Shown here: piece by piece, positions 1-23,173 of the stretch
Layout: each line of letters starts with the position of its first letter
Numbering within the stretch: position 1 is the first letter of the stretch
From: Syntrophorhabdus sp. PtaU1.Bin058
GTDB taxonomy: Bacteria > Desulfobacterota > Syntrophorhabdia > Syntrophorhabdales > Syntrophorhabdaceae
Assembly: GCA_002067975.1 (NCBI GenBank)
Contig: MVRS01000239.1
Location: forward strand, 1-37,318
Reading direction: 5' to 3'
Length of the DNA stretch: 37,318 nucleotides
Translations under genes and position numbers: made by a program
Notes under the pieces: generated by a model
The model's database searches: none
The model's input: the letters and a program-made list of their open reading frames with translations, nothing else
What the model was told of the DNA's origin: nothing

Positions 1-601
1 CTGATGCAAGGGCAACGGTGCCATTGGTTGCCGTTATCGTCCCTTCATTCGTAATATGGGGGGAGAGGAAGGCGACGTAGCCGCCGTTTACGGTCCCCTG
101 GTTGAGGAGGGAGCCTGCGCTTCCCGTATGCTCAAAGAGGTATTTTCCTGCAAGGAAGTTCTCATTGGTAAGATTAAGGGATGAGGCGACAAGCCCTCCT
201 ACGTCCACCCGGGCAGTGGGACCGAAGTACACCCCTGCGGCATTGAGGAGGAAGACCTGTCCGTTGGCGCTTAACCTCCCGTAGATCAGGGAGGGGTTCT
301 GGTCGAGGATACGGTTTAGGGCCACGCTGGATGCACCGGGCTGGTTGAAGGTGACCAAGGCGTTCTGACCGATGTTGAAGGTATTCCAGTTGGCGATCAT
401 CCTGTCGGTTGCCTGGTTCACGGTCATGGAGCTGCCTGACTGGGAGATGGTGCCGGTGCCTGATACGATCTGCCCGCCTGTGGGGAGGGCGGCGGGGTCG
501 AGGGAGAAGGCAGGCATATAATGGGCAAGAACACAGAGCAGGGTTATGCATAGGGTAATAAAGAACCTGGATATCGTTTTCGTATCGTATCTCTTCTTCA
601 T
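1..601 (-). CDS. Two-partner secretion exoprotein TpsA (filamentous hemagglutinin family), N-terminal ~200 aa only; gene continues beyond the window start
   Basis: Hand translation of the reverse strand from ATG at 601..599 gives MKKRYDTKTISRFFITLCITLLCVLAHYMPAFS... then a TPS secretion domain (TISQSGSSMTVNQATDRMIANWNTFNIGQNALVTFNQPGASSVALNRILDQNPSLIYGRLSANGQVFLLNAAGVYFGPTARVDVGGLVASSLNLT). Open to position 1 with no stop. This frame is absent from the ORF track because it lacks a stop inside the window. It lies 12 bp downstream of tpsB on the same strand. Confidence 0.75.
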   Translation of the reverse strand, partial: MKKRYDTKTISRFFITLCITLLCVLAHYMPAFSLDPAALPTGGQIVSGTGTISQSGSSMTVNQATDRMIANWNTFNIGQNALVTFNQPGASSVALNRILDQNPSLIYGRLSANGQVFLLNAAGVYFGPTARVDVGGLVASSLNLTNENFLAGKYLFEHTGSAGSLLNQGTVNGGYVAFLSPHITNEGTITATNGTVALAS

Positions 602-612
602 GGTCATCCCCT

Positions 613-2346
613 TTATAGCCATATGATAAGCTGGAGCCAGAAGCGTCCGTTGTCATTCAGGTTGTCGGCGTCGTTGCCGGATACGCTCCTGCCGTCGTTG
701 GGACCTACCTTGTGGGCGTAGGATGCCCTCACGCTGTAGAGACCGGGCTTGCCTACGTTGATCCCCACGCCTGCCCCGGAGAGGACATACTCGTTCTTCC
801 CGCTTGCGCTCGTGACGGAGCCGGGCCAGGGACTCCGGTGGAGCTTCACCCACCCTGCGTCAATGAAGCCTGTCAGCTGGGTCGCTGCCCATGAGGGCAT
901 AAAGGGTACATCGTAGCGGGTCTCAAGGGTGAGGGTGTGGCCTTCATCGCCCGGCGCCTCTCCCACGGGATAGGCACGGATGCCCGTGGGGCCTCCGAGG
1001 ATGAACTTCTGGGAGGAGTCGAGGTTGTAGGAGGCGAACTGTCCCTTGAGGGAGCCGAAGAGGGCGACCCTCTGGGTTATGCGCTGGAGACGGGCGAGAG
1101 AGTAGGTTGCCCGCATGAAGGTCCCTTGTGTCCTCGGTCCTGCATCATCGTTCTCCTTGTTGGCGGTAAGTCCCGAGAGGTCAACGTTCCCCCCGGTTAT
1201 GAGAAAAGAGGCGCTGGTGAGCCCCCCGCCCCCGAAGGTATCGAAGAAGCTCCCTGAGACAGAGGCGGTGCCGGTGGAGATCCTCCTGTCCCTCGTCTTC
1301 TCCCCGTTCGCCTCGTCGTTGAGCATCATGTACTCGGCCCCCATGCCTGTCCAGATGCTCGTGTTCCTGGTGCGGACGAGGGGATAGCTTATGCCGGCGG
1401 AGAGGGTGTCTGCCCAGCCCTTTGCCTTGAGGTCGGCGAGGTCCTTGCCCAGCTCATAGGTGAGGCCCGTATAGGCGGCGTTTACGGTAAGGCCCGTTGA
1501 CCCGACGGGGAGGTCGTATGCGGCCCTCCACTGGCTTAAGTGCTCTGCATAGGTGGAGGAGAGGGTCATCTGGTCCCCGAGGCCGAAGGGGTCGTAGGCC
1601 GATACCTGGCCGGTACCCCGGTAGGTGCCGGTATAGCGGTCGCCGAAGGTGTCCCCGGAGAGAAGTCCGTGGAAGACGGGGCCTTCATCGGCATTGATCA
1701 CGATCCGTGTGGTGCCCGGGGCTGCACCGGGTTCAAGGGATGCCCTGGCAGTGATGCCGGGGAGGTCGTTCATGAGGAGCACGGCCCTCTCTATCTGCTC
1801 CATCCTGGCAGGGCCGCCGGAAGGGACGGAACGCTCCGCGATGCCTGCGAGCAGGGAGGGTCTGATCCTTTTGGGCTCCTCCATGTTGATCCTCACCTTC
1901 CCGTCGATGCGGCCCGAGATAATGGCGATGGTGACGATCCCCTCGGTTATGTCCTGTTTGGGGAGGTATGCCCTGGCAAGGAGATAGCCCTTCTTCTCAC
2001 GGAGGTAGGCGGTGACCCGGGAGGCTGCCTCCTGGAGGTCGGCAAAGCCCAGTTCCTTGCCTATGTTGTCCTTGACAAGCTCCTGAAGCTCGGCGTCCGT
2101 TGCGATCGTGTCGAGACCAATGAAGCGGAAGCCCTTGACGAGCACCTTTATGCCCCTGTCGGTCATGGGAGGGGCTATCGTCTCCTTCTCGCGGTCTGCG
2201 GGGAGGCGGTCAGGGAGGGCAGCGCCGGGCTGTCTTTGTTCCTGAAGAAGGATGCCTGCGTCGGGTCTGGTCTGGGCTGTGGCGGCGGTGCATAGGAAAA
2301 GGACAATACAGGTGAAGCAGAAGAATATTCCGGCAGGATGTTTCAC
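613..2346 (-). CDS. TpsB outer-membrane transporter/activator of the ShlB/FhaC/HecB family (POTRA + Omp85-like beta-barrel)
   Basis: 594-aa ORF with signal peptide, POTRA-like segment (LLARAYLPKQDITEGIVTIAIISGRIDGKV) and a C-terminal barrel ending in an aromatic residue. The likely real start is the GTG at 2346 preceded by GAGGGGGAG; the ORF track extends to 2397. Confidence 0.85.
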   Translation of the reverse strand: MKHPAGIFFCFTCIVLFLCTAATAQTRPDAGILLQEQRQPGAALPDRLPADREKETIAPPMTDRGIKVLVKGFRFIGLDTIATDAELQELVKDNIGKELGFADLQEAASRVTAYLREKKGYLLARAYLPKQDITEGIVTIAIISGRIDGKVRINMEEPKRIRPSLLAGIAERSVPSGGPARMEQIERAVLLMNDLPGITARASLEPGAAPGTTRIVINADEGPVFHGLLSGDTFGDRYTGTYRGTGQVSAYDPFGLGDQMTLSSTYAEHLSQWRAAYDLPVGSTGLTVNAAYTGLTYELGKDLADLKAKGWADTLSAGISYPLVRTRNTSIWTGMGAEYMMLNDEANGEKTRDRRISTGTASVSGSFFDTFGGGGLTSASFLITGGNVDLSGLTANKENDDAGPRTQGTFMRATYSLARLQRITQRVALFGSLKGQFASYNLDSSQKFILGGPTGIRAYPVGEAPGDEGHTLTLETRYDVPFMPSWAATQLTGFIDAGWVKLHRSPWPGSVTSASGKNEYVLSGAGVGINVGKPGLYSVRASYAHKVGPNDGRSVSGNDADNLNDNGRFWLQLIIWL

Positions 2347-2458
2347 GGTCTCCCCCTCGATTTCGTTAACCCGTTGATCGTACCGCTTTCTTCGCACAAC
2401 CCTTAGATGTAGGCAAAGAAGCTATCCGGATTTTAAATAGTATAATTTTTAATAGTTT

Positions 2459-2495
2459 ATTATATTCCGACGTTCCCCACAGATCGCCCACAGAT
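2459..2495 (-). promoter_or_regulatory. Candidate tpsB promoter: minus-strand TATAAT (2464..2459), then 11 bp, then two direct repeats ATCTGTGGG with 11-bp periodicity (plus-strand CCCACAGAT at 2476-2484 and 2487-2495) overlapping the -35 region
   Basis: Read directly from the sequence. The repeats have exact 11-bp spacing and sit about 105 nt upstream of the tpsB start. Confidence 0.3.
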
Positions 2496-2536
2496 TAAAA
2501 AAAAACGAAAAAAAGAGAGCGATTCAGGAGATGGTT

Positions 2537-5500
2537 TTACAGCCCTTGGAGTATGGAGGAATAGATGGCCTGGGTCTCAGCGGAAGGGTCTATACTGAGA
2601 TCGTCCCTGAGCAGGCTGCAGCAGCGGTTGTATGTCTTGACGACATCCGCCTTCCTGCCGAGTTTCCCATAGCATTTCATGAGCCTCTGATAGAATTCTT
2701 CGGCGAGATGATCGGTGTCCAGCCCCTGCTGATAAAATTCTACTGCCTGTTCCCATTGTCCGGTTTGCTCATAATGACGGCCGCTTATGCTGATTGCACG
2801 CAACAGGTTGTTTTTCAGCAATTCATGTCTGTGTACAGCCCAGGGCAGGTTGGTGTCAGCCGGAAGGAAAGGTCCTTTATGCAGACCGGCGGCCTTTTCG
2901 CAGAGTTGCACGACCTGATCGGCCGGTGATTTCCTGATCTTTTCGAACACGCGTTCCAGCACCATGCTGTCTACCCAACAATAGAGGGGGTCCAGACTTA
3001 CCTGTCCGGCGCCGTATTTTACAAAATTATCTCCGCCCAGCAGTCGACGCAAACGGCTCATGGTCATTTCGAGGGACTTGTGCGCAAGGTCGCCGTCCGC
3101 ATCGGGCCAGAGCGCCTGGGCCAAACGTTCCACCGGAATGTTGCTGCCGCCATAGGCAATGACGGCCTTGAGCATTTCCAGGGGTTTCTTCTGCACCTTT
3201 CCTGTAAACTCAAGGGGCTTCCCATCCTTGACGATCTCAAATCTCCCGAGGGTGTATATTTTGATGGGATAGGGCCAACATTCAATGAAGGATGCAGAAG
3301 TTGCGAAGGGTAGGTGCAGAGGAGGAGTCAGCCCCAGCTTTCCGATCAACCCCTTCACATATTCCGGTTCTATCCCTTCCGCAAGGGCCCTCGCATAAAG
3401 GAATTGCATGACCGAAGGCTGGTAGAACTCGAGATGGACATAACCATGTTCCCTGCCCAGCAAAAGCCCGCGACGGAGCGACACCAGCCCTTCCTTTTCC
3501 TTTCCTCCCTGCAAAAGGAGATAAGCATCGATCAACAGACCGTACCACTCCATGACGTAGCTCTTCATTCCCAGACCGATCCGGCGCACAGCTTGAACAT
3601 GTTTCTTCGCATCCCTCGTACGGCCTTGCAGAAAGGTCACCTGCGCCATGCCGATATGCCATAAGGCCCGGTAGTAGGGTGTTCCCATGTTCGCCACTTT
3701 GGTGGAGATTGTTTCCATATGTTCGGCGGCAAGGGATGCGTTTCCCGTGAGCATTGCATGCCAGGCGGAATTGATGTGATAAAAGAAAATATCCAGTGCC
3801 TTTGACATGCTGAGAGATGCCGTCCTCTGATTCTGTAGCGATTTCTCCGCAAGCACCATATCGCCGGAGGCCATTTCCGCCGCGGCGCTGAAGCTCCACA
3901 ACAGAGAATCAAAAACATGCACGCCGCTCTTATCGGCGAGACCCAGCCCTTCGGATAGAATCCGCAAGGCGTTTTCATACTGTGCCGTAACCCAGTAATG
4001 AATACCCTTCATCAACTTTATACGGATGGCGGCAAAGGGAGCGGGGCTTTGATTCAGGATTTCAGTCTCGGCCCTTTCAAGCAGAATTTCATTTTTCTGA
4101 TACTCCCCTTTCCACAAATAATAGATACTCATACAAAAGACGGTGTCGATCTGGATATCGACAGAGGGGTTTTTCTGCAACAGAACGGGTATAAGCTTCA
4201 ACAATTCATCCACTTTCTGCGGCTGGTCCGTTTTCCGCAGCGTAAGGCATATCAGCATCCTCGATGATGCGATAAGGTCTACTTCGCTTGAAGGGAAGGA
4301 TGGATAGGCGCTTCTCAGGTTGTTGAAGACCGTGATGCAGTCGTCGAGGTGCTTCCAGTCGTCGAGCTCAAAGGCATAGGTATCCACAATGCCGGCCCAG
4401 GAAAGATACTGGCCCGCTGCATCATCGCCGTCCCTGAACAATGAAAAGGCCAATTCAAGGGCTTCCCTGGTGCGGGGTATGTCGAAGGGGAAGAAACACA
4501 TCCCTTCCCAGTACAAAAACCATGGGTTGCCTGCGGCCGTCTCGCTGGGAATACCCGCGATCCATTCGGCGACGGTTTTGTTCCTTCCCTGATGCAGAAA
4601 TTCCCTTGCGTGGCCTATGACCATCCGGGCGAGATGTTGTCCCTCTCCGGCATCGAGATAAAGCCTGGCAGCACCTTCAATCTGTCCCGACTCTTCCAGC
4701 ATCTGCGCCGCCTTTTTCCTGAGCTTAGCCAGTTTTTCGGGACGATAGAACGTCTTTGCCCGGCTCATCAGGTAATCCCTGAACAACGGATGATAACGGT
4801 AACCCCTGCCGCCGGAAAGTTTCTCGGTAAAATAATTCTGACGGTTCAACTTCGAAAGGATAGACTCCGCAAGGCCCTCGCCCGTAAGCCTTTCTGCCAG
4901 AGGAACACTCAGGCTGGGCAGGAAGGCGGTCTTGAGAAGAAACTCCTGCACCCCTTTTTCCGTTTTTTCAAAGATCTCACCTGCGAAATAATCGAACACG
5001 CGGCCATAGGCAGCATCCGTATCCAATAAGGTTTCCGTTTTGTCGAATCTCGCCCGCTCCAGCACCAGGACGATCCCGGCAGCCCATCCCTCCGTATTTT
5101 CATGTATCTCCTTTATGGATTGATCGTCCATCTGCGGGATGCGTCCCCGGACAAGCTCCCTGGATTCTTTAAACGTAAAACGAATTTCACTATACTCGAG
5201 CACGTTGATCTTTCCGTTGGCTTGCAGACGGGCCAGTGCGGTCGGCGGATCGCTGCGGCTGACGACCACGATTCGAACGCCTTCAGGGACACCGTCGAAT
5301 CCGTTTGCGATCATGTCGTGAAACGGAGAGCCGGCGGGTACATCCTGGTAGTTGTCCAGGACGATGAAGAAACCATTCGGAGTGATGTGTGGTGGGTATC
5401 GGGTTGCGAGACGGTGGTAGAGTTTCTCAAAATACCTTCGGGTAAAGGTAGGAATGCCGGCAAGATATTCCCGTGTCAGAAGCGGGAGGCTCTGCTTATA

Positions 5501-5776
5501 CCGCGGTGCGGCCTTCTTGGCGGCAAGACCCATGTAATAGAAGAACGTTGCAAGGTCTGAATCCCCTTCGTCACATTGATACCAGATGCATGGGAGTTTG
5601 CGGGAATCCAGATAGCTCGAAACAAGGGTTGTCTTCCCGGAACCGGCGGGCGAGGACACCCAGACGACGGACTTCCCCACTTTGCCGTCCAGAATGCCAA
5701 AAACCCTCTGCCTTTGCACCACCCGGGAAAGGTCCGGACGTGTTATTTTAAAATAATTGGGTACAGGGACATCCAT
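2537..5776 (-). CDS. Large STAND/MalT-like signal-transduction NTPase with a C-terminal SARP-type DNA-binding module (OmpR/PhoB winged helix + BTAD)
   Basis: 1079 aa. N-terminal P-loop NTPase (Walker A SSPAGSGKTTL, Walker B FFIVLDNYQD) resembling the MalT/LAL N-domain; a long helical/TPR-like middle region; C-terminal OmpR-type wHTH (YTLGRFEIVKDGKPLEF...LLKAVIAYGG) followed by a BTAD helical domain. The start is 7 bp after the upstream YiiX-like gene stop. Confidence 0.7.
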   Translation of the reverse strand: MDVPVPNYFKITRPDLSRVVQRQRVFGILDGKVGKSVVWVSSPAGSGKTTLVSSYLDSRKLPCIWYQCDEGDSDLATFFYYMGLAAKKAAPRYKQSLPLLTREYLAGIPTFTRRYFEKLYHRLATRYPPHITPNGFFIVLDNYQDVPAGSPFHDMIANGFDGVPEGVRIVVVSRSDPPTALARLQANGKINVLEYSEIRFTFKESRELVRGRIPQMDDQSIKEIHENTEGWAAGIVLVLERARFDKTETLLDTDAAYGRVFDYFAGEIFEKTEKGVQEFLLKTAFLPSLSVPLAERLTGEGLAESILSKLNRQNYFTEKLSGGRGYRYHPLFRDYLMSRAKTFYRPEKLAKLRKKAAQMLEESGQIEGAARLYLDAGEGQHLARMVIGHAREFLHQGRNKTVAEWIAGIPSETAAGNPWFLYWEGMCFFPFDIPRTREALELAFSLFRDGDDAAGQYLSWAGIVDTYAFELDDWKHLDDCITVFNNLRSAYPSFPSSEVDLIASSRMLICLTLRKTDQPQKVDELLKLIPVLLQKNPSVDIQIDTVFCMSIYYLWKGEYQKNEILLERAETEILNQSPAPFAAIRIKLMKGIHYWVTAQYENALRILSEGLGLADKSGVHVFDSLLWSFSAAAEMASGDMVLAEKSLQNQRTASLSMSKALDIFFYHINSAWHAMLTGNASLAAEHMETISTKVANMGTPYYRALWHIGMAQVTFLQGRTRDAKKHVQAVRRIGLGMKSYVMEWYGLLIDAYLLLQGGKEKEGLVSLRRGLLLGREHGYVHLEFYQPSVMQFLYARALAEGIEPEYVKGLIGKLGLTPPLHLPFATSASFIECWPYPIKIYTLGRFEIVKDGKPLEFTGKVQKKPLEMLKAVIAYGGSNIPVERLAQALWPDADGDLAHKSLEMTMSRLRRLLGGDNFVKYGAGQVSLDPLYCWVDSMVLERVFEKIRKSPADQVVQLCEKAAGLHKGPFLPADTNLPWAVHRHELLKNNLLRAISISGRHYEQTGQWEQAVEFYQQGLDTDHLAEEFYQRLMKCYGKLGRKADVVKTYNRCCSLLRDDLSIDPSAETQAIYSSILQGL

Positions 5777-5783
5777 AAAATTA

Positions 5784-6356
5784 TCAATATCTCCGATGCT
5801 TGCAGCCGTCCCATATCTCCTGGGGAAGGATGATGCTCTTCGTCCCCGGAATGTTAAAGACCCTTGCCCCGGTGTTGAGGTCGATCCCGTTCCTCAGATA
5901 CGCCTTGTACGCAAGCTGGCTGCAATAGAAGGCGTCCTCGGTGGATGAGTTGAAAAAATTGATGTTGTACGGTTTTTTGAGCTCTGCCTGCTTGAGGCAG
6001 TATGCTGCGACGTCCTCCCGTATCGCCGCCTCCCGTGCAGTGCCAATATCTCCTGATGCAAGGGGATATGCGATGCCGTAGAGAACATCGGCAAAAGGAC
6101 CCCGCCTGCGTCTCATCTTTTTTGCGTCCCACCTGTGGTCGATAATATCGAAGGTTATCACCTTCCCCTTGGCGCCCGCTTCAACACATCTCCCTTCGGG
6201 GCCGACATAGATAACGATGTGGTCCACGTCCCCCGGTATGAGCTTGCCGATGAGGCGCCAGAACTGCCCGGTGATGTCCTCGGTGCCGCCGTCGGTAGTG
6301 CAGATGAGGTCTCCCGTCTGAACGGCCAGTCTCTCTATCTCATAGGCGTGAACCAT
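5784..6356 (-). CDS. YiiX/YaeF (DUF830) family permuted papain-fold (NlpC/P60-like) hydrolase, cytoplasmic
   Basis: 190 aa. Motifs match E. coli YiiX: TGDLI...DHIVIYVG (His region) and KPYNINFFNSSTEDAFYCSQLAYKAY (catalytic Cys C-terminal to the His, i.e. permuted order). No signal peptide. Confidence 0.65.
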   Translation of the reverse strand: MVHAYEIERLAVQTGDLICTTDGGTEDITGQFWRLIGKLIPGDVDHIVIYVGPEGRCVEAGAKGKVITFDIIDHRWDAKKMRRRRGPFADVLYGIAYPLASGDIGTAREAAIREDVAAYCLKQAELKKPYNINFFNSSTEDAFYCSQLAYKAYLRNGIDLNTGARVFNIPGTKSIILPQEIWDGCKHRRY

Positions 6357-11069: not shown

Positions 11070-12290
11070 ATGCGTGCGCAGGAAACTAAGAAAAACGACA
11101 TTACGAAGAAGGTCTCTTTTACTCCACTTTTGAGACGCTGGTGGGTTTTGCCGGCAGCGGCCTGCATCATTATCCTGGGGGTATACGTATTTCTGATAAA
11201 ACCTGGTATGGCGCAATCAGATGCCTCCAGGAAAAAAACGGGTGCCCAGATGCGCAGCATACCGGTTACAGTAGCGGCGGTTAAGAAAGGGGACATGTCC
11301 GTGTACCTCACCGGACTGGGTACGGTGACCCCGCTCAATACCGTGACCGTCAGGACCCGGGTGGACGGACAGCTCATGGATGTCTATTACCGGGAAGGCC
11401 AAACCGTCAACAAGGGGGACATGCTGGCGCTCATCGATACGAGGCCTTTCGAGGTGCAGCTGGCACAGGCAGAGGGACAACTGGCACGTGATAAGGCGAT
11501 CCTCGCCAATGCACGGATTGACCTCGACCGCTATCGTGTACTCTGGAAGCAGGATTCCATCTCAAAACAGCAGCTCGATACCCAGGAGGCGCTGGTCAGG
11601 CAATATGAAGGCGTTGTAAAGGTCGACCAGGGGTTGATTGATAGCGCCAGGCTCCAGTTGTCCTATTGCCGGATTACCTCACCGATCACGGGCCGTATCG
11701 GGCTTCGTCTTGTGGACCCGGGCAATATGGTCCACGCGAGCGATGGAAGCGGCCTTATTGTGATTACCCAGATCCAGCCGATGACGGTCGTGTTTTCCAT
11801 CCCGGAAGACAGCCTTCCGCAGGTACATCGCCGGTTCAAAACGGGCGTGCAGTTGCCGGTGGAGGCCTATGATCGTGAACAAAAGGAGAAACTTGCCACA
11901 GGGTACCTGTTGACGATCGACAACCAGATCGATACAAGCACGGGGACCGTTAAGCTCAAGGCAACCTTCCCGAACAAACAGAACGAGCTGTTTCCCAATC
12001 AGTTTGTGAACGCCCGGCTGCTTGTCGACGTCCGGCGGGGGGCCGTTATCGTGCCGTCATCCGCTATACAGCGTGGTCCCCAGGGGACCTTTGTTTATGT
12101 GGTGAAGGAAGGCCGGACGGTCACGGTGCGCCCGGTCAGTATCGGTGAGATCCAGGGCGGTGAAGCCTCAATAAAGACAGGTGTCTCGCCGGGTGAATCG
12201 GTCGTGACGGACGGCGCAGACAGACTCATAGAGGGGGCAAAGGTAGAGCCAAAACGCGGGGGCGGCGAAACCTCTCAAAAGGACCGCTGA
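11070..12290 (+). CDS. mdtA: RND efflux periplasmic adaptor (membrane fusion protein), MdtA-like
   Basis: 406 aa with N-terminal TM anchor, lipoyl/beta-barrel MFP motifs and AGGAGGA RBS. The stop overlaps the next start (TGATG). Confidence 0.85.
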
Positions 12291-15200
12291 TGAACCTTTC
12301 CCGCCTTTTCATAACCCGGCCCGTAGCGACAACGCTGCTTATGGTCGCGATCTTTTTAAGCGGCGTTGTAGCATACAAGCAGCTTTCGGTATCCGCCCTG
12401 CCCCAGGTGGATTATCCGACCATTCAGGTGCGGACCTTCTATCCCGGCGCAAGCCCTGACGTCATTGCCTCTTCCGTAACGGCCCCGCTGGAGCGTCAGT
12501 TCGGCCAGATGCCCGGCCTGACCCAGATGACCTCGACAAGCTCAAGCGGCAGCTCTATCATCACGCTCCAGTTCTCTCTGAACTTAAGCCTTGACGTTGC
12601 CGAGCAGCAGGTCCAGGCGGCCATAAACGCCTCCTTCACCTATCTGCCTCGCGATCTTCCGATCCCCCCGGTGTACAGCAAGGTAAACCCTGCTGACGCC
12701 CCGATCCTGACGCTCGGCTTGACCTCCGAAACGATGCCGCTTACGCAGGTGGAGGACCTTGCGGATACCAGGTTTGCACAAAAGATCTCACAACTCCCCG
12801 GGGTGGGGCTGGTAAGCATCAGCGGCGGGCAAAGACCGGCCGTGAGGGTCCACGCCAACCCAGCGGCCCTGGCGGCGTACGGCCTGACCCTGGAGGACCT
12901 GAGGGCCGCTATTGCGGCTGCAAACGTCAACCAGGCAAAGGGGAGCTTCGACGGTCCCCGCCTCTCCTATATCATAGGCGCCAACGATCAGCTTTTCTCG
13001 AGTAAAGAATACCGGTCCCTGATCGTCGCCTACCGTAACGGTGCGCCTGTCAGGCTGTCCGATGTTGCCGAGGCCGTCGATGACGCCGAAAACATAAAGC
13101 AGGCCGCCTGGATGAACGCTTCCCCTGCGGTTATCGTCAACATCCAGCGGCAGCCGGGTGCAAACGTCATAGAGGTAGTTGACCAGATCAAGAAGGTGCT
13201 CCCGCAGCTCCAGAGCGCCCTTCCGCCTGCCGTAAAGGTCTCCGTGTTGACCGACCGCACCACCACGATCCGGGCGTCGGTCCATGACGTCCAGTTTGAG
13301 ATGATGCTTGCCGTGGCGCTTGTCGTTATGGTCATGTTTCTCTTCCTTCGCAACCTCGCTGCAACGATCATCCCCAGCGTAGCCGTACCCCTCTCCCTCG
13401 TGGGAAGCTTCGGCGCCATGTATCTCATGGGATTCAGCCTGAACAACCTCTCCCTGATGGCCCTCACCATCTCCACCGGCTTCGTGGTGGACGACGCGAT
13501 CGTCATGATCGAGAACGTGGCCAGGTATATTGAGGCAGGGGACCCTCCGCTCCAGGCGGCCCTGAAGGGCTCCAAGCAGATAGGCTTTACCATCCTGTCT
13601 CTCACTGTCTCGCTCATCGCCGTGCTCATTCCGCTTTTGTTTATGGGGGACGTGGTAGGCCGTCTGTTCAGGGAGTTCGCCGTCACCCTCGGCATTACCA
13701 TAGTGATCTCCGCCGTCGTATCACTCACACTCACCCCGATGATGTGCGCGAAGCTGCTCAGGCACGGGGACGAGGTCCGGCAGGGAAGATTCTACCGCTC
13801 GTCGCAGAGGGTCCTTGACCGGGTGATCGGGTTCTACGGAAGGACGCTGGCATGGGTGCTGAGACACCAGAGAGCCACCCTCTGGGTGGCCGTAGGCACA
13901 CTGGTCTTTACGATCCTATTGTTTTATTACGTGCCCAAGGGCTTCTTTCCGGTCCAGGATACCGGGCTTATTCAGGGGATATCGGAAGCGCCCCAGTCGA
14001 TCTCCTTCACGGCCATGGCCGAGCGCCAGCAGGCCCTTGCCCGGGTGATCCTCAGGGACCCGGCGGTCGAAAGCCTCTCGTCCTTCATCGGCATAGACGG
14101 GACGAACGTTACACTCAACAGCGGTCGGATACTTATCAACCTTAAGCCCCTTGCAAAGCGGAAGATAGACGCAAGCGAGGTGATCCGGCGCCTCCAGCCC
14201 GAACTTGCCAGGGTCGAAGGGATCACGCTGTTCATGCAGCCCGTACAGGACCTTACCGTCGATGCACGGGTGGCCCGTACCCAGTATCAGTATACCCTCG
14301 AGGACCCCGACATCGATGAGCTGAATGCGCTGGCCCCCAGGCTTGTCGAATCGCTCCGCAGCAATCCCGGGCTTCGCGACGTGAGCAGCGACCAGCAGGA
14401 CAAGGGGCTGCAGGTCTTTATTGAATTCGACCGCAATACCGCCTCACGGCTGGGCATTACGCCGCAGATGATCGATGACGCCCTCTATGACGCATTCGGA
14501 CAGCGTCAGGTCTCCACCATCTTTACCCAGTTAAATCAATACCGCGTTGTCCTTGCCGTTAAGCCCGATTTTCAGAAAGGCCTGGAGGCGCTGCAATCCA
14601 TCTACCTTCGCAGCGCAAACAACGGGCGGGTGCCCCTCGGGACGCTCATCAAGACCTCGGAGACCACGGGGCCGCTTGTTATCAGCCGCCAGGGACAGTT
14701 TCCCGCTGCCACGATCTCCTTCAACCTGGCGCCCGGAACAGCCCTCGGACATGCGGTAACGGCTATAGAATCCGCCGAGAGCAAGATGGACTTCCCGGCC
14801 AGCATCAGGGGCAGCTTCCAGGGGACCGCACAGGCCTTCAGGGCCTCCCTTCAAAATGAATTGTTCCTGATCCTCGCGGCCCTCGTGACTGTCTATATCG
14901 TCCTCGGGATACTCTATGAGAGCTATATACACCCCATAACGATCCTGTCCACGCTGCCGTCTGCAGGAGTAGGGGCGATCCTCGCGCTCCTGATCTGCCG
15001 CTCAGAGTTCAGCGTCATCGCTCTCATCGGCATCATCCTGCTCATCGGCATTGTGAAGAAGAACGGCATCATGATGGTGGACTTTGCCCTGGAGGCGGAG
15101 CGTACGGAAGGGAAAAGCCCCCGGGATGCGATCTACCAGGCCTCTCTCCTCAGGTTCCGTCCCATCATGATGACCACCATGGCGGCGCTCCTCGGCGCCC

Positions 15201-15406
15201 TCCCGTTGGCCATAGGGACAGGTGTGGGATCGGAACTTCGCCACCCCCTGGGCATTACGATCGTCGGCGGGCTGATCATCAGCCAGTTACTGACCCTCTA
15301 CACGACGCCCGTGATCTACCTCGCCTTTGACCGCTTAGCACAGCGGGTGCGGCTATGGCGGTCCGGAAAGGCAGGCGGAGAGAGGGAAGGCGCGGACCGT
15401 CAATGA
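12290..15406 (+). CDS. mdtB: RND multidrug efflux transporter permease, MdtB-like
   Basis: 1038 aa, 12-TM RND architecture with two large periplasmic loops and conserved AcrB/MdtB-type segments. First of two tandem RND paralogs following an MFP, which is the mdtABC arrangement. Confidence 0.9.
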
Positions 15407-18400
15407 ACTTCTCGGCGATCTTTATCCAGAGACCCGTGGCCACCACCCTCATCACCCTCGGGATAGTGCTCTCCGGGATAGTTGCCTTTCATATGCTGCC
15501 CGTCGCCCCGCTGCCCCAGGTCGATTTTCCTACGATCCAGGTATCGGCGGGACTGCCGGGTGCGGACCCCGAGACCATGGCAACATCCGTTGCCGCACCG
15601 CTCGAGCGCCAATTCGGGCGCATAGCGGGTGTAACTGAAATGACATCCACAAGCTTCCGCGGCACGACGAACATCACGATGCAGTTCGACCTGAACCGCA
15701 ATATCGACGGCGCCGCCCGCGATGTGCAGGCGGCGATCAACGCGGCCAGGGGGTTCCTGCCGCCGAACCTTCCCAACAATCCGACGTACCGCAAGGTCAA
15801 CCCTGCCGACGCGCCCATCCTTATCGTTGCCCTCCAGTCCGACGTGATAGGCACGCCCCAGTTGTATGACGCCGCATCGAGCATCATGCAGCAGAAGCTC
15901 TCGCAGGTGGACGGCGTGGGCCAGGTATTCGTCGGGGGCAGTTCCCTCCCTGCCGTCCGCGTGGAGGTTAACCCCAAGGCGCTGAACAAGTACGGGATCA
16001 GTCTGGAGGACGTGCGCGGCGTGCTGGCCTCCACCAACATAAACAAACCGAAAGGACAATTGTCGGACGATACGAAGACGTGGGAGATAAAGGCCAATGA
16101 TCAGCTTCGAAAGGCCGTTCAGTACCGGCAGGTGATCGTTGCTTACAAGGCCGGTGCTGCGGTACGGCTGCCGGACGTGGCAAACGTAGAGGATTCGGTG
16201 GAGGACGTGCAGACCGGCGGTTTCGTGAACGGCAAACCGGCCGTCATGGTAATCATCTTCCGTCAGCCGGGGGCGAATATCATCGAGACCGTGGACCGCG
16301 TTCGCGACCTCCTCCCTCAGCTGGCAGCCTCCTTGCCAGGGAGCGTCAGGGTGTCGGTCGTGCAGGACCGCACACCGCCCATACGCGGCTCCCTGAAAGA
16401 CGTTGAGAAGGCGCTCATCATCTCCGCGGCCCTTGTGATCCTCGTGGTCTTCGGCTTTTTAAGGCACATCCGCTCCACCATTGTCCCCGCCGTTGCAGTA
16501 GGCGTGTCGCTCATCGGTGCATTCGGGATCATGTACCTCTGCAACTATAATCTCGACAACCTCTCCCTCATGGCACTCACCATAGCCACCGGATTCGTGG
16601 TGGACGACGCTATCGTCGTCCTTGAGAACATTACCCGCTATATGGAAAAGGGACTGTCCCCCGTGGAGGCTGCGCTGCGGGGATCCAGGGAGATCGCCTT
16701 TACGGTCCTCTCAATGAGCATCTCCCTTGTAGCCGTATTCATCCCTATCCTCCTGATGGGCGGCATGGTGGGCCGTCTGTTCCGAGAGTTTGCCGTGACC
16801 CTTTCTGCCGCGATCATGGTCTCCCTCGTGGTCTCCCTCACCACAACACCCATGATGTGTGCCGTATTTCTCAGGCCTGAAAAAAGCTATGTCCACCACG
16901 GGCTTCACAGGGTAAGCGAGAAGGTCTTTGGCTGGATGTTAAACCGTTACGACCTGACGCTCAGGTGGGCGCTGCGCCACTCACGCTTCATGCTCGCCGT
17001 AACGGTGGCCACGTTCATGGTCAATGTCTTCCTCTTCTTCGTCGTCCCCAAGGGCTTTTTTCCGGAAACGGATACAGGGCGCATTCGGGGCACCATTCAG
17101 GCGGAACAGGATGTGTCCTTTCAGGCCATGAAGGCCAAGCTGGCGACCGTAATCAACATCATCAAAGAAGACCCCGACGTGGAACATGTGGCCGGCCATA
17201 CCGGTGGCGGAAGGGGCGGCAGCGCGCTGAATACCGCATCGATGTTTATTACGTTGAAACCCTTTGAACAACGAAAAAGCAGCTTGAGCGACCTGATGTC
17301 AAGGCTCCGGAAGAAACTTGCAGTATTGCCCGGGGCAGCCACCTATCTCCAGCCTGTACAGGACCTCCGTATAGGAGGAAGAGGCGGCAACGCACTCTAT
17401 CAGTATACGCTCCAGGCGGGTGAAATATCGGAGCTGTATGCATGGGGTCCGCGCATCGTCCAGAAGATGCGTACGTTACCCGAACTGGTGGATGTAAGCA
17501 GCGACCAGCAGGTAAAGGGGCTGCAAGCCACGCTGGTGATCGACCGGAATACGGCCTCACGGCTCGGGATCACGGCTGCCATGATCGACAACACCCTCTA
17601 CGATGCCTTCGGCCAGCGCCAGGTCTCTATCATCTACTCGCTCCTGAACCAATACCGCGTGGTCATGGTCGTCGATCCCCGTTTCTGGCAAAGCCCGGAT
17701 ACGCTGAAGGAGATTTATATAAAGTCCACCAACGGGGCGATGGTCCCGCTCAGCGCCTTTGCGAAGTTCGAACGGACCGCCACTTCCCTTGCCGTTGCCC
17801 ACCAGGGCCAGTTTCCTTCCGTCACGATCTCCTTTAATCTGGCACCGAAGGTGCCTCTCGGGAACGCGGTGGCATCGATCGAGCGGGCCGGACGGGAGAT
17901 GGGTTTCCCTTCCACTATCAGGGGGAGTTTCTCGGGCACGGCCCAGGCGTTCAAAGACTCGGTGGCCAATCAGCCGCTCCTGATCCTTGCGGCCCTCGTG
18001 ACTGTCTACATCGTCCTCGGCATGCTCTATGAGAGCTACATACATCCCATAACTATCCTGTCCACGCTGCCGTCCGCCGGGGTAGGGGCGCTTTTGGCGC
18101 TGCTCATCTGCCGCACGGAGTTGAGCCTGATCGGCCTGATCGGTCTCTTCCTGCTCATCGGCCTTGTGAAGAAGAACGGCATCATGATGGTCGACTTTGC
18201 ACTGGAGGCTGAGCGCAGGGAAGGAAAAGGACCCGGAGAGGCGATCCACGAGGCCTGCCTGCTGAGGTTCCGCCCCATCATGATGACCACCATGGCGGCG
18301 CTCCTCGGCGCCCTCCCGTTGGCGCTGGGCATGGGGATAGGGTCCGAGCTTCGCCGGCCCCTTGGCATCACGATCGTAGGCGGGCTGTTGATCAGCCAGA

Positions 18401-18501
18401 TGCTTACCCTCTATACGACGCCGGTCATGTATCTCTACCTCGATCGTTTCAGGCTATGGTGCAAACAAAGAGGAGGTCAAACAAGACCTGTTAAGAACTG
18501 A
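15403..18501 (+). CDS. mdtC: RND multidrug efflux transporter permease, MdtC-like
   Basis: The real start is the ATG at 15403 ([15 protein letters not shown]), overlapping the mdtB stop as ATGA; the ORF track extends to 15355. About 1030-aa RND paralog of the preceding gene. Confidence 0.9.
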
Positions 18502-18513
18502 TAGGAGAGTGCT

Positions 18514-19956
18514 ATGAGAACTTTACACAGACTGATTACCGCAGGAACAGCGGTTGCAGCGGTCCTGGTCTTGACCTCTGCCTGTGCGGTGGGTCCTGAC
18601 TACGTGAGGCCCGCGGTTCCTGTGCCGGAGTCCTATAAGGAGAGCAAAGGCTGGAAGGTCGCGGAGCCGAGGGAAGACAGGTTTCACGGCCCCTGGTGGG
18701 AGATCTATAACGATCCCCGGTTGAACAGGCTTGAAGAACAGGTCAATATCTCGAACCAGAACATCGCCGTTGCGGAGGCGCAGTTCCGTCAGGCAAGCGC
18801 CCTCGTTCAGGCCGCCACGTCGGGTTTTTTTCCTACCATCACGGTAAACCCTGCCGCAACGCGCTCCTTACGGTCGTCGAATGCCGCCCAAGCCGGCACG
18901 CCGCCCGGTACGAACACCACCTATACTGCGCCCCTCAACATGTCGTCATGGGAGCTGGATATCTGGGGCCGTATACGCCGTTCCGCAGAGGCGGCCCGCG
19001 CAAGCGCCCAGGCGAGCGCAGCAGACCTCGAAGGCGTCCGGCTCAGCGTTCAGGCCGCTCTTGCTCAAAACTATTTTCTCGTATGCGCACTGGACAGGCA
19101 AAAGCAGCTTCTCGATGCAACGGTAAAGGCCTACGAGAGATCGCTCGAATTAACTAAGAACCAATATGCAAGCGGCGTCGCCTCCAGGGCGGATGTCCTC
19201 CAGGCGGAAACCCAGCTCAAGGCAACGCAGGCCCAGGCAATCGACGTAGGCGTTCAGCGCGCCCAGACGGAGCACGCCATCGCCCTGCTTGTGGGAAAAC
19301 CTGCCTCCGATTTTTCCATCCCCGTTACACCCCTCGACGCGGTCCCGCCTCCCATACCGGGCGGAGTACCATCGGAACTCCTCGAGCGCAGGCCCGATAT
19401 AGCTGCGGCTGAACGGCGGGTTGCCGCTGCAAACGCCCAGATCGGAGTGGCCAGGGCCGCCTATTTCCCGACCGTCACGCTGACCGGATCGATGGGTTAT
19501 CAGAGCACGGAAACGTTCAATTGGTTTTCCTGGCCAAGCCGTTTCTGGTCCGTCGGGCCTGCAATCTCTGAGACCATATTTGACGGGGGTCTGAAAAGGG
19601 CGCTGAATGATCAGGCCCGTGCGGTTTACGATGCGAACGTGGCGTCTTACCGTCAAACCGTGCTCACCGGATTCCAGGAGGTGGAGGACAATCTGTCTGC
19701 CCTCCGCATCCTCGAACAGGAGATGCTGGCGCAGGATGAGGCGGTGAAGGCGGCCCGGAGGTCCGTGGAGATTGTTCTAAACCAGTATAAACAGGGTACT
19801 GCAAGCTATGTCGCGGTTAACGTGGCGCAGACAAATGCACTGAACAGCGAAAGGACGGCGCTTAATATCCTCGCCCGCCGGATGACCGCCAGCGTTCTCC
19901 TCATCAAGGCCCTTGGCGGAGGGTGGGAAAAAAACAGTGAAAAAGAAAAACAATAG
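18514..19956 (+). CDS. Efflux outer membrane factor lipoprotein (NodT/OprM family)
   Basis: 480 aa. Lipoprotein signal ...LVLTSAC, GPDYVRP motif after the lipid-modified Cys, and two OEP repeats. Confidence 0.9.
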   Translation: MRTLHRLITAGTAVAAVLVLTSACAVGPDYVRPAVPVPESYKESKGWKVAEPREDRFHGPWWEIYNDPRLNRLEEQVNISNQNIAVAEAQFRQASALVQAATSGFFPTITVNPAATRSLRSSNAAQAGTPPGTNTTYTAPLNMSSWELDIWGRIRRSAEAARASAQASAADLEGVRLSVQAALAQNYFLVCALDRQKQLLDATVKAYERSLELTKNQYASGVASRADVLQAETQLKATQAQAIDVGVQRAQTEHAIALLVGKPASDFSIPVTPLDAVPPPIPGGVPSELLERRPDIAAAERRVAAANAQIGVARAAYFPTVTLTGSMGYQSTETFNWFSWPSRFWSVGPAISETIFDGGLKRALNDQARAVYDANVASYRQTVLTGFQEVEDNLSALRILEQEMLAQDEAVKAARRSVEIVLNQYKQGTASYVAVNVAQTNALNSERTALNILARRMTASVLLIKALGGGWEKNSEKEKQ

Positions 19957-19978
19957 CGGAGGGTAAGGCGATTCCCAA

Positions 19979-20025
19979 TTGACGTTTGCCCGTTTTTTTG
20001 CTAATCTATGTTGAACAAGTGTTCA
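19979..20025 (+). promoter_or_regulatory. Sigma70-type promoter TTGACG-17-(TGc)TAATCT (19979-20007) with a perfect inverted repeat TGAACA-ag-TGTTCA (20012-20025) over the predicted transcription start. Candidate autoregulatory operator of the downstream TetR.
   Basis: Read directly. 17-bp spacer. The palindrome lies between the -10 and the ATG at 20029. Confidence 0.4.
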
Positions 20026-20028
20026 GGA

Positions 20029-20646: not shown

Positions 20647-20711
20647 TGGAAATCTCTATGGTGGGACGGGTATTGAACCCCTCAAGGAAGGGAAGACAGA
20701 ATTATGCGGCA

Positions 20712-22073: not shown

Positions 22074-22110
22074 AGACGGGGAAGGCAATGTACATATCGA
22101 GGAGAAGTAC

Positions 22111-23169: not shown

Positions 23170-23173
23170 TCCC

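What the first reader, a model, noticed from the sequence alone, without database searches (positions are those of the whole stretch)
2459..2495. 11-bp-periodic direct repeats overlapping the -35 of the tpsB promoter, which is the binding-site geometry expected for a SARP
On the tpsB-coding strand there is ATCTGTGGG, a 2-nt gap, then ATCTGTGGG (exact 11-bp period), 11 bp upstream of a perfect TATAAT. SARP-family activators (ActII-ORF4, DnrI, AfsR) bind direct repeats with 11-bp periodicity that overlap the -35 and end about 8-12 bp from the -10. The only SARP-type DNA-binding domain in the window is in the STAND protein whose gene ends 40 bp away. This suggests the STAND-SARP protein directly activates the two-partner-secretion operon tpsB-tpsA.
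Basis: partly seen in the sequence, partly recalled or inferred. Interest (0 to 1): 0.55.

Follow-up and report, generated by a model that had tools for sequence, protein, structure and literature searches.

The report
Regulator-linked direct-repeat promoter for tpsBA
Two identical 9-base repeats one DNA turn apart, just upstream of a secretion operon, are very probably the docking site of the large sensor-regulator encoded next door, because the same repeat-plus-promoter layout follows this regulator's gene in dozens of other bacteria.

Summary
On the minus strand, ATCTGTGGG (2495-2487), CG, ATCTGTGGG (2484-2476), 11 nt and TATAAT (2464-2459) lie between a STAND regulator gene and tpsB-tpsA. 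In the window alone the repeat is not significant: 12% of shuffles give such a repeat. The evidence is comparative.

- **Period:** 36 of 73 loci encoding relatives of the regulator carry a near-perfect period-11 repeat within 250 nt of its stop codon. Other periods give 0-7 loci.
- **-10 element:** a TAnnnT hexamer starts 11 nt after the second repeat in 15 of 39 anchored loci.
- **Footprint:** the repeats hold 1.7-2.0 bits per position, the flanks 0.2-0.6.
- **Covariation:** the repeat sequence changes with one recognition-helix residue.
- **Fold:** the C-terminal 250 residues model as an AfsR/EmbR-type SARP domain.

The box travels with the regulator, not with tps. TpsB orthologues of 71-88% identity elsewhere have neither box nor regulator.

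- the SARP domain is C-terminal to a MalT-like NTPase;
- the gap to the -10 is 11 nt, not 8;
- the host is Syntrophorhabdus.

Binding and activation remain inferred. I rate it a new variant of a known kind.

The parts
2487..2495 (-). Upstream direct repeat (DR-up), ATCTGTGGG. It would lie at about -43 to -35 if the start site is near 2452.
   Evidence: It is conserved in L001 and in 66%-identity relatives. Mean information is 1.73 bits per position in 13 loci of the close subfamily.
2476..2484 (-). Downstream direct repeat (DR-down), ATCTGTGGG, exactly 11 bp from DR-up, at about -32 to -24.
   Evidence: It is the most conserved element of the region, 1.96 bits per position.
2485..2486 (-). 2-nt spacer (CG) between the repeats. 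It is variable among relatives (TA, TC, CG).
   Evidence: 0.98 bits.
2459..2464 (-). TATAAT, the predicted -10 hexamer, 11 nt after DR-down.
   Evidence: GGAATATAATAA is identical in L001. TAnnnT starts at offset 11 in 15 of 39 anchored loci and at offset 10 in 3; no other offset has more than 4.
2497..2519 (-). T-rich tract (CTCTCTTTTTTTCGTTTTTTTTT) directly upstream of the repeats. It may be an UP-element-like region. It is not a terminator tail, since no hairpin precedes it.
   Evidence: Sequence. Comparable T-rich tracts precede the box in most relatives. No terminator-like site and no significant fold, z = 0.14. The role is inferred.
2350..2452 (-). Predicted transcription start (about 2452) and about 100-nt 5' UTR of tpsB. 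It contains a stem GCTTCTTTG / CGAAGAAAGC at 2422-2414 and 2393-2384.
   Evidence: The start site is inferred from the -10 position. There is no Rfam match and the fold is not better than shuffles. The stem arms are conserved and the loop has diverged in L001.
2537..5776 (-). Gene for a 1079-aa STAND regulator: MalT-like P-loop NTPase (residues 12-418), helical repeat sensor region, and C-terminal SARP unit.
   Evidence: MalT model E 5e-51. The Walker A motif GSGKT is in the sequence.
2540..3265 (-). SARP unit (residues about 838-1079): OmpR-type winged helix with recognition helix ...KSLEMTMSRLRR..., followed by the BTA domain. M904, S907 and R908 align with AfsR T88, S91 and R92.
   Evidence: AfsR contacts are from PMC10936776.
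613..2349 (-). tpsB (Omp85-type transporter with POTRA_2 and ShlB domains). It is 100% identical to a protein of Syntrophorhabdus sp. PtaU1.Bin058.
1..601 (-). 5' part of tpsA (signal peptide and TPS secretion domain). The gene runs off the window.
5784..6356 (-). 190-aa permuted papain-like (YaeF/YiiX-type, weak match) gene ending 7 nt before the STAND start codon. It is probably co-transcribed with the regulator. Its role is unknown.
   Evidence: Among all fetched loci it is conserved only in L001.

Best explanation
The two repeats are the operator of the STAND-SARP regulator encoded immediately upstream. Together with the TATAAT they form an activator-dependent promoter that lacks a -35 element and drives tpsB-tpsA.

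Proposed sequence of events, with each step's status:
1. The MalT-like NTPase and sensor part of the protein responds to an unknown ligand plus ATP and changes its conformation or oligomeric state. This is inferred by analogy with MalT and AfsR.
2. Two C-terminal SARP units sit side by side on the same face of the DNA, one per 11-bp repeat, over about -43 to -24. The geometry is shown; binding is inferred.
3. The recognition helix ...EMTMSRLRR... reads the repeat. This is supported by family-wide covariation.
4. The bound dimer replaces the missing -35 contact and recruits the RNA polymerase holoenzyme to the -10 hexamer. Transcription then starts near 2452 and reads through a roughly 100-nt leader into tpsB and tpsA. 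This is inferred from AfsR transcription-complex structures.

The box belongs to the regulator, not to the tps genes. In most relatives it drives a 62-80-aa protein and/or genes for exported proteins. In the window's lineage the tpsBA operon has been placed behind it.
For: **Position and periodicity**
- In 73 loci picked only by protein similarity to the regulator, 36 have 9-mers identical at 8 or 9 positions at period 11 within 250 nt after its stop codon. Periods 8-10 and 12-15 give 0-7 loci each.
- Anchored on the GT core, 39 loci align. TAnnnT starts 11 nt after the second repeat in 15 of them and 10 nt after in 3.

**Footprint**
- In 13 loci of the close subfamily (52-94% identity), information is 1.73 and 1.96 bits per position in the repeats. 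It is 0.98 in the spacer, 0.44 in the 11-nt gap, 0.70 in the -10 and 0.24-0.58 in the flanks.
- Relatives of about 66% identity (L082, L083, L085) keep the box although their downstream genes are unrelated to tps.

**Regulator identity**
- The AlphaFold2 model has pLDDT 93.9.
- The six best PDB matches are all AfsR chains from transcription complexes (8k60, 8hvr) or EmbR chains (2ff4, 2fez), E 1e-9 to 8e-9, TM 0.63-0.69. The next hits are TPR-only, E above 4e-4.
- Sequence profiles agree.

**Covariation**
- The residue aligned to AfsR S91, next to the base-contacting R92, is S or A where repeat positions 7-8 are GG (14 of 16).
- It is H or F where they are AA (10 of 15).
- It is Y where they are C followed by A or G (5 of 6).

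**Promoter logic and alternatives excluded**
- The -35 position reads GCGATC, 2 of 6.
- No terminator, RNA family or stable structure is found between the genes.
- The small ORF found in other loci is absent from the window, so its product is not encoded beside this box.

**Sites away from a regulator gene**
- L158 and L193 have no regulator gene within the fetched locus (about 7 kb on each side of the site in L193).
- L099, L111 and L163 carry the same promoter and the same secreted-protein gene as L120, which lies next to a regulator gene. This is what a trans-acting factor predicts.

**Literature**
- SARP dimers bind two 11-bp direct repeats overlapping the -35 and act by sigma adaptation (PMC10936776).
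Against: - No experiment exists: no mapped start site, no binding data, no expression data.
- In the window alone the repeat is within chance.
- The gap from repeat to -10 is 11 nt, not the 8 bp of described SARP promoters. The box therefore sits about 3 bp further upstream than the afs box.
- The covariation follows clades, so it represents only a few independent events, and it has exceptions (L035, L077, L015, L017).
- Regulators of 52-91% identity share the same box. A paralogue elsewhere in the genome could therefore be the factor that acts here.
- The tps link rests on two closely related sequences (window and L001, 88% identical in the intergenic region).
- TpsB orthologues of 71-88% identity have no box.
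- Read-through from the regulator gene could also express tpsBA, because no terminator separates them.
Confidence: 0.72

Rival explanations
1. The box is a real operator and promoter element, but the factor acting on it in this genome is not the adjacent protein. It could be a paralogous STAND-SARP with the same specificity or an unrelated DNA-binding protein.
For: Relatives of 52-91% identity from different organisms use the identical ATCTGTGGG box. Paralogues in one genome could therefore cross-react. The family is large, with 1539 proteins at E<=0.001 among the 8000 scored candidates, and includes several Syntrophorhabdus entries. Boxes also occur away from any regulator gene.
Against: The box is physically coupled to the regulator gene in most loci, and its sequence tracks that protein's recognition helix. 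No other SARP, OmpR-type or BTAD protein is encoded in the 37-kb window.
Confidence: 0.12
2. The adjacent protein binds the repeats but not as an activator. It acts as a repressor or roadblock, for example limiting read-through from its own gene, or as a 3' autoregulatory element.
For: The site lies 41 nt after the regulator's stop codon with no terminator between. It also overlaps the core promoter region, where repressors commonly bind.
Against: There is no usable -35 (GCGATC). In the family, the -35 position always falls inside the repeats, which is the hallmark of activator-dependent promoters. The -10-like hexamer keeps a fixed 11-nt distance from the box. Every SARP whose action is described in the papers read here for the SARP domain mechanism (AfsR and the small SARPs) is an activator using this layout (PMC10936776). 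The same box stands in front of genes with no regulator gene upstream.
Confidence: 0.08
3. The repeat is a chance duplication in an AT-rich intergenic region, and tpsBA is read from a constitutive TATAAT promoter or by read-through.
For: Within the window, 12% of shuffles give an exact 9-mer repeat at period 11, and other periods have similar repeats. A second TATACT and an antisense TATAAT lie nearby.
Against: There is family-wide recurrence at period 11 only, a strong footprint, and conservation at 66% protein identity with unrelated downstream genes. The degenerate family pattern occurs once in the window against 0.04 expected.
Confidence: 0.03
4. The repeats mark a recombination or cassette-exchange site, since the genes downstream of the regulator differ from locus to locus.
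For: Synteny breaks right after the box. Downstream lie tpsBA here and, elsewhere, a small ORF, giant proteins or fusexin-like genes. Homology to other tpsB genes begins only at about 2294-2310, inside tpsB.
Against: No integrase or recombinase gene is found nearby in the window. A fixed distance to a -10 hexamer and covariation with a DNA-binding helix are not expected of a recombination site. The break with other tpsB genes lies about 170-185 nt downstream of the box, not at it.
Confidence: 0.03

Closest known systems
AfsR and the afs box of the afsS promoter (Streptomyces coelicolor), a large SARP with NOD and TPR domains
   Same: The SARP fold is shared: the best PDB matches are 8k60 and 8hvr. 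Both use two 11-bp direct repeats bound by a side-by-side dimer and overlapping a poor -35. In both, only the first 8-9 bp of each 11-bp unit are conserved. Both couple the DNA-binding unit to a STAND/NOD ATPase and helical repeats. In most relatives of the window protein the box drives a small protein (62-80 aa). The afsS promoter is a target of AfsR (PMC10936776). That AfsS is a small protein encoded next to afsR is from my memory, not checked here.
   Different: The domain order is reversed: here NTPase, then sensor, then SARP; in AfsR SARP, then NOD, then TPR. The NTPase is MalT-type. The conserved repeat core ends 11 nt from the -10, not 8, so the box sits about 3 bp further upstream. The repeat sequence is unrelated. 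The host is a Gram-negative syntroph, and the target here is a two-partner secretion operon. The small proteins show no detectable similarity to any family.
Small SARPs (ActII-ORF4, DnrI, RedD) and SARP-LAL regulators (PimR type)
   Same: They have a winged helix plus BTA unit. They bind heptameric direct repeats at 11- or 22-bp spacing next to the -10 and act as activators (PMC10936776; title and abstract of PMC5930380).
   Different: They are actinobacterial, pathway-specific for antibiotic clusters, and carry the SARP at the N-terminus with an 8-bp gap.
MalT (E. coli) and MalT boxes
   Same: The N-terminal 400 residues match the MalT model at E 5e-51, and WHD_MalT and TPR_MalT domains occur in relatives. 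From general knowledge, MalT is a STAND activator switched on by ligand and ATP that binds repeated boxes at promoters lacking a -35.
   Different: The C-terminal DNA-binding module is a SARP unit instead of a LuxR-type helix-turn-helix. The box sequence and spacing are different.
GSU1771 of Geobacter sulfurreducens
   Same: It is a SARP-type regulator outside the Actinobacteria with the SARP unit at the C-terminus (PMC10599522).
   Different: It has a receiver domain at the N-terminus, not a STAND NTPase. No operator comparable to this box is described in the passages I read.
EmbR of Mycobacterium tuberculosis
   Same: It has the same winged helix plus BTA fold (2fez, 2ff4).
   Different: It carries a C-terminal FHA domain and is regulated by phosphorylation. 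It has no NTPase.

Membership tests
SARP family (DNA-binding unit) | OmpR-type winged helix followed by a BTA (BTAD) domain, folding as in AfsR and EmbR | tested here: met
   BTAD E 1e-20 to 6e-21 and Trans_reg_C E 1.2e-3, below its cut-off. AfsR model region 32-267 matched at E 5e-7. Profile hits to EmbR 3.9e-5 and AfsR 5.5e-5. AF2 pLDDT 93.9, with the six best Foldseek hits all AfsR or EmbR chains, E about 1e-9, TM 0.63-0.69.
SARP family (target site) | Direct repeats spaced by 11 bp (or 22 bp) | tested here: met
   Exact 11-bp period in the window. Period 11 is specifically enriched across relatives, 36 of 73 loci against 0-7 for other periods.
SARP family (target site) | The 3' repeat lies 8 bp from the -10 element | tested here: not met
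   The gap is 11 nt in the window (10 if the frequent trailing T is counted as part of the unit). Eleven is the modal value in the family. The rule is quoted from PMC10936776.
SARP family (target site) | The box overlaps a weak or absent -35 element | tested here: met
   The -35 position reads GCGATC, and no sigma-70 consensus promoter was scored. The repeats span about -43 to -24.
SARP family (architecture) | SARP unit at the N-terminus, with any extra domains C-terminal (large SARPs) | tested here: not met
   The SARP unit occupies residues about 838-1079 of 1079, and the NTPase is N-terminal.
SARP family (function) | Binds the repeats and activates transcription | not testable with these tools
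   Only indirect support is available: co-localisation, footprint and covariation.
MalT-type STAND regulators | N-terminal P-loop NTPase of MalT type with winged-helix and helical-repeat sensor domains | tested here: met
   NCBIfam MalT model E 5e-51 over residues 12-418. Walker A GSGKT is in the sequence. WHD_MalT and TPR_MalT are recorded for close relatives.
MalT-type STAND regulators | C-terminal LuxR-type helix-turn-helix | tested here: not met
   There is no LuxR/GerE hit; the C-terminus is a SARP unit.
Two-partner secretion operon (the regulated genes) | TpsB with POTRA and ShlB barrel, followed by TpsA with an N-terminal TPS domain | tested here: met
   POTRA_2 6e-15 and ShlB 2e-21. 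TPS domain 4e-28.

The most novel reading that the evidence does not exclude
The window shows one instance of a widespread, uncharacterised regulatory system of Gram-negative bacteria (Desulfobacterota, Nitrospirota, Beta- and Gammaproteobacteria). Its parts are a MalT-like STAND sensor fused to a C-terminal SARP unit, and the sensor's own portable promoter box placed right after its gene. The box follows a readable recognition rule, in which the residue aligned to AfsR S91 pairs with repeat positions 7-8. The ancestral first target is an unannotated protein of about 70 aa, an arrangement reminiscent of AfsR and AfsS. The output is exported or surface proteins, including two-partner secretion adhesins and, in some Geobacterales, tandem HAP2/GCS1 (fusexin-like) proteins.
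Probability: 0.45. Interest if true: 0.75.

Novelty: new variant of a known kind. Interest (0 to 1): 0.6.

Why it matters
SARPs are studied almost only as antibiotic-pathway activators of actinomycetes. This case has a SARP unit working with reversed domain order behind a MalT-type sensor in anaerobic Gram-negative bacteria. Its operator can be recognised from sequence alone, which has several consequences.

- Regulons of hundreds of unstudied regulators become predictable from genomes.
- The system gives a natural test of how far the sigma-adaptation mechanism tolerates a 3-bp shift of the box.
- It offers a simple specificity-swap experiment, S907 to H or Y.
- For Syntrophorhabdus, it names a candidate switch for a large surface or secreted protein, a class of function that is hard to approach in uncultured syntrophs.
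- It shows how such a module captures new output genes.

Tried and rejected
**Leads that gave nothing**
- RNA element or riboswitch in the leader: no Rfam match at E<=1, and the fold is no better than shuffles.
- Terminator of the regulator gene: no terminator-like site, and z = 0.14 for 2455-2545.
- ECF-type or sigma-54 promoter: GGAAC and CGTC lie adjacent in the 11-nt gap but are not conserved in L001. No GG-N10-GC arrangement fits. Rejected by reading the sequence.
- Further copies of the box in the window: none.
- The small ORF that follows the box elsewhere: absent from the window. It has no Pfam, NCBIfam or PDB relative.

**Look-ups that failed**
- Exact-protein look-ups for three window proteins found nothing.
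- The source was identified only through TpsB: 100% identity, contig of 37318 nt, Syntrophorhabdus sp. PtaU1.Bin058.

**A prediction that failed, informatively**
- I expected tpsB orthologues to carry the box. Loci L206-L209 (71-88% TpsB identity) have neither box nor regulator, and homology to the window starts only inside tpsB. The box therefore belongs to the regulator.

**Metagenome scan**
- The scan for the exact 20-mer returned a mixture. About 30 hits have the family signature. The rest are unrelated tandem arrays and two other recurrent elements. Raw hit counts therefore say nothing about a regulon.

**Literature**
- No characterised member of this architecture turned up.
- One apparent hit was a false lead: 'btad' occurred inside journal DOIs.

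Full report
**What is in the sequence**

On the minus strand, the region between a 1079-codon gene (2537-5776) and tpsB reads, 5' to 3':
- TAA stop at 2539-2537, then 17 nt;
- a T-rich tract at 2519-2497;
- A, then ATCTGTGGG (2495-2487), CG, ATCTGTGGG (2484-2476);
- GAACGTCGGAA (11 nt), then TATAAT (2464-2459);
- about 100 nt, then GAGGGGGAG and GTG (2349).

The downstream gene has POTRA_2 and ShlB domains. The next gene (ATG at 601, running off the window) has a TPS secretion domain. The tpsB-tpsA call is therefore right.

The hexamer at the -35 position is GCGATC, and the consensus scan scores no sigma-70 promoter. No other BTAD or OmpR-type regulator is encoded in the window. The other regulators are three TetR proteins and one sigma-54 activator.

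TpsB is 100% identical to a protein on a 37318-nt contig of Syntrophorhabdus sp. PtaU1.Bin058, which identifies the source.

**Is it more than chance?**

Not within the window. An exact 9-mer repeat at period 11 appears in 12% of dinucleotide shuffles. Periods 9, 12 and 13 each also have one such repeat in the window.

**The regulator**

- The N-terminal 400 residues match the MalT model (E 5e-51).
- Residues 841-1077 match the SARP region of AfsR.
- Pfam finds BTAD (1e-20) and, below its cut-off, the OmpR-type winged helix.
- A profile of the winged-helix and early BTA region hits EmbR (3.9e-5) and AfsR (5.5e-5).
- An AlphaFold2 model of the last 250 residues has pLDDT 93.9.
- The six best PDB matches are all AfsR chains from transcription initiation complexes (8k60, 8hvr) or EmbR chains (2ff4, 2fez), at E 1e-9 to 8e-9 and TM 0.63-0.69. 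The next matches are TPR-only, above 4e-4.

The protein is thus a chimera of a MalT-like STAND NTPase and a C-terminal SARP unit. This is the reverse of AfsR's domain order.

The family is large. 1539 proteins score E<=0.001 among the 8000 candidates scored, and the best 120 are at 52-91% identity, most over 97-100% of the query (a few at 92-96%). All but one have both the BTAD and the WHD_MalT domains on record.

**Comparative evidence**

*Close and intermediate relatives*
- A metagenomic contig with a 91% identical regulator (L001) has the same gene order. It keeps both repeats and GGAATATAATAA. The spacer (CG to TA) and the 11-nt gap differ.
- Three relatives of about 66% identity (L082, L083/L084, L085) have no tps genes. 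They still carry ATCTGTG(G/A)G-N2-ATCTGTGGG after a T-rich tract, just downstream of the regulator gene. A TAnnnT hexamer follows 10-11 nt later.

*80 genome loci chosen only by two peptide motifs of the regulator*
- The 140 nt after the stop codon show a two-unit repeat of period 11 in most members, and sometimes a three-unit repeat. This holds down to about 30% identity, in Geobacter, Syntrophorhabdus, Nitrospira, Desulfobacteraceae, Burkholderiales and Gammaproteobacteria.
- 36 of 73 loci have 9-mers identical at 8 or 9 positions at period 11. For every other period from 8 to 15 the count is 0-7.
- Anchored on the GT core, TAnnnT starts 11 nt after the second unit in 15 of 39 loci and 10 nt after in 3. 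No other offset has more than 4.
- In the 13 loci of the close subfamily, information content is 1.73 and 1.96 bits per position in the two repeats. It is 0.98 in the spacer, 0.44 in the gap, 0.70 in the -10 and 0.24-0.58 in the flanks.

**Covariation**

The profile alignment places AfsR T88, S91 and R92 on window residues M904, S907 and R908. In AfsR, T88 and R92 contact bases and S91 contacts a phosphate on the recognition helix (PMC10936776).

R908 is invariant in the family. The S907 position varies with repeat positions 7-8:

| Residue at the S907 position | Repeat positions 7-8 | Count |
|---|---|---|
| S or A | GG | 14 of 16 |
| H or F | AA | 10 of 15 |
| H or F | GA | 3 more of the 15 |
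| Y | C then A or G | 5 of 6 |

The classes largely follow clades and there are exceptions. This is supporting evidence, not proof.

**What the box drives elsewhere**

- In at least 37 loci the first gene after the box is a 62-80-aa protein, with motif ...SFIVRIYR...ITG.VE..DGS...F...EL..L and a basic tail. It often starts only 9-15 nt after the -10 hexamer. It has no Pfam, NCBIfam or PDB relative.
- Further downstream lie genes for proteins whose N-termini look like signal peptides (judged by eye from the translations): a PPIase, a BACON lipoprotein, an Ig-like protein, beta-propellers, a carboxylesterase, an 11778-aa protein, and three tandem HAP2-GCS1 proteins.
- The window has no copy of the small ORF.

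**The box belongs to the regulator, not to tps**

- TpsB orthologues of 88, 81, 74 and 71% identity sit in unrelated contexts. L206 follows a sequence that looks like a tRNA gene. None has a regulator gene or a box upstream.
- Nucleotide homology to the window begins only at about 2294-2310, inside tpsB.
- The promoter, the leader and the first 15 or so codons are therefore specific to the window and L001. The tpsBA operon was placed behind the regulator's promoter in this lineage.

**Sites away from a regulator gene**

- A metagenome scan for the exact 20-mer gave 120 stretches, a mixed set.
- About 30 have the family signature. Fourteen of those have a regulator gene directly upstream.
- L158 and L193 follow a gene I read as MogA/MoaB-like, and L193 shows no regulator within about 7 kb on either side.
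- L099, L111 and L163 repeat the promoter and secreted-protein gene that in L120 lie 560 nt after a regulator gene.
- This fits a trans-acting factor with several targets. I could not show that these contigs share a genome with a regulator.
- The other hits are unrelated tandem arrays and two other recurrent elements.

**Mechanism**

*Shown*
- A SARP-fold DNA-binding unit is encoded 41 nt upstream.
- Two repeats lie one helical turn apart, covering the -35 region of a promoter that has a perfect -10 and no -35.
- This layout is conserved family-wide and co-varies with the recognition helix.

*Inferred*
- Two SARP units bind side by side, replace the -35 contact and recruit RNA polymerase, as in the AfsR complexes (PMC10936776).
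- The MalT-like part makes this depend on ATP and an unknown ligand.
- Transcription starts near 2452.

*Differences from described SARPs*
- The domain order is reversed.
- The gap is 11 nt rather than 8 bp, which places the box about 3 bp further upstream.
- The box sequence is different.
- The host is a Gram-negative bacterium.
- The output is a secretion system.

**Rivals**

| Rival | Main counter-evidence | Weight |
|---|---|---|
| Chance repeat | Excluded by the comparative data | 0.03 |
| Recombination site | Fixed distance to the -10; the break with other tpsB genes lies about 170-185 nt downstream of the box | 0.03 |
| Repressor or roadblock role | Absent -35; boxes occur in front of genes with no regulator upstream | 0.08 |
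| Another protein, especially a paralogue of the same specificity, acts here | Cannot be excluded | 0.12 |

**Comparison and novelty**

- The closest system is AfsR with the afs box of afsS. MalT is the closest relative of the sensor half.
- GSU1771 shows that C-terminal SARP units exist in Desulfobacterota, but behind a receiver domain.
- My literature searches found no characterised member of this NTPase-SARP architecture and no description of its box. The library covers only open-access papers, so absence is not proof.
- I rate it a new variant of a known kind, with interest 0.6. The mechanism is an expected one for a SARP. The reversed architecture, the family-wide readable operator, the shifted geometry and the class of output genes make it a directly testable entry into an unstudied regulator family.

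Noticed in passing
L056:9548-14374 (Geobacterales MAG, JBBRBA010000051.1) and L186: Three tandem genes (538, 532 and 526 aa, 56-63% identical to each other) match Pfam HAP2-GCS1 'male gamete fusion factor' at E 2e-60, 3e-58 and 3e-66 over nearly the whole model. They lie right after a STAND-SARP gene, its repeat box and the small ORF. L186, a metagenome contig found only through the box sequence, carries at least two homologues (about 50-69% identical) in the same arrangement. Moi et al. 2022 (PMC9259645) treat bacterial assignments of fusexin genes with caution. Here the neighbouring genes are of a family found in bacterial MAGs.
   Followed up: partly
L082:9317-9520, L083:9342-9551, L007, L004, L012, L015 and about 30 further loci: An unannotated family of 62-80-aa proteins is the first gene after the box in at least 37 loci. 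It has invariant R, Y, R, G, E and F residues in ...IVRIYR...G.VE...F...EL..L, followed by a basic tail. The gene often starts 9-15 nt after the -10 hexamer, which suggests a leaderless or near-leaderless mRNA. There is no Pfam, NCBIfam or PDB match. The arrangement recalls afsR-afsS.
   Followed up: partly
window 2294-2452; L206:5590-5670: Homology between the window and other tpsB genes starts only at about 2294-2310, inside the coding region. The promoter, leader and signal-peptide start were therefore swapped in. In L206 (TpsB 88% identical) a sequence that looks like a tRNA gene, read by eye and not run through ARAGORN, lies about 330 nt upstream of tpsB.
   Followed up: partly
window 2384-2422 (minus strand): A stem in the predicted tpsB leader is formed by GCTTCTTTG and CGAAGAAAGC. 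Both arms are identical in L001 while the loop between them has diverged. Only two sequences are available, and the overall fold is not better than shuffles.
   Followed up: no
window 2441-2446 (plus strand) and 2446-2441 (minus strand): A second perfect TATAAT lies on the opposite strand, pointing into the 3' end of the regulator gene. A TATACT lies on the tpsB strand 13 nt downstream of the first -10. Neither is conserved in L001.
   Followed up: no
L115, L117, L137, L139, L151, L157, L176, L191, L194, L200, L202; and L091, L097, L130, L169, L178, L192, L195: The same 20-mer sits inside two other recurrent metagenomic elements of unknown nature. One is ...GGCGACCACCATAGGAG[box]CTTTC(G/T)GTGGC..., the other ...CCCATG...CATGGGACG[box]AGGCTCATATGGTGCATAAC.... 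It also occurs in tandem arrays of the 11-mer (L100, L102, L180).
   Followed up: no
L029, L037, L047, L018: Some relatives (Burkholderiales, Casimicrobiaceae, Smithella) have three units of the repeat at period 11 instead of two.
   Followed up: no
window 5784-6356: A 190-aa gene with a weak permuted papain-like (YaeF/YiiX, C92) match ends 7 nt before the regulator's start codon. It is conserved only in L001 among about 200 loci.
   Followed up: partly
window 11070-24733: Two efflux clusters lie side by side, each preceded by a TetR gene. The first has an MFP, two RND pumps in tandem whose ORFs overlap by 52 nt (12290-15406 and 15355-18501), and an OEP. The second has an OEP, an MFP and an MFS transporter.
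   Followed up: no
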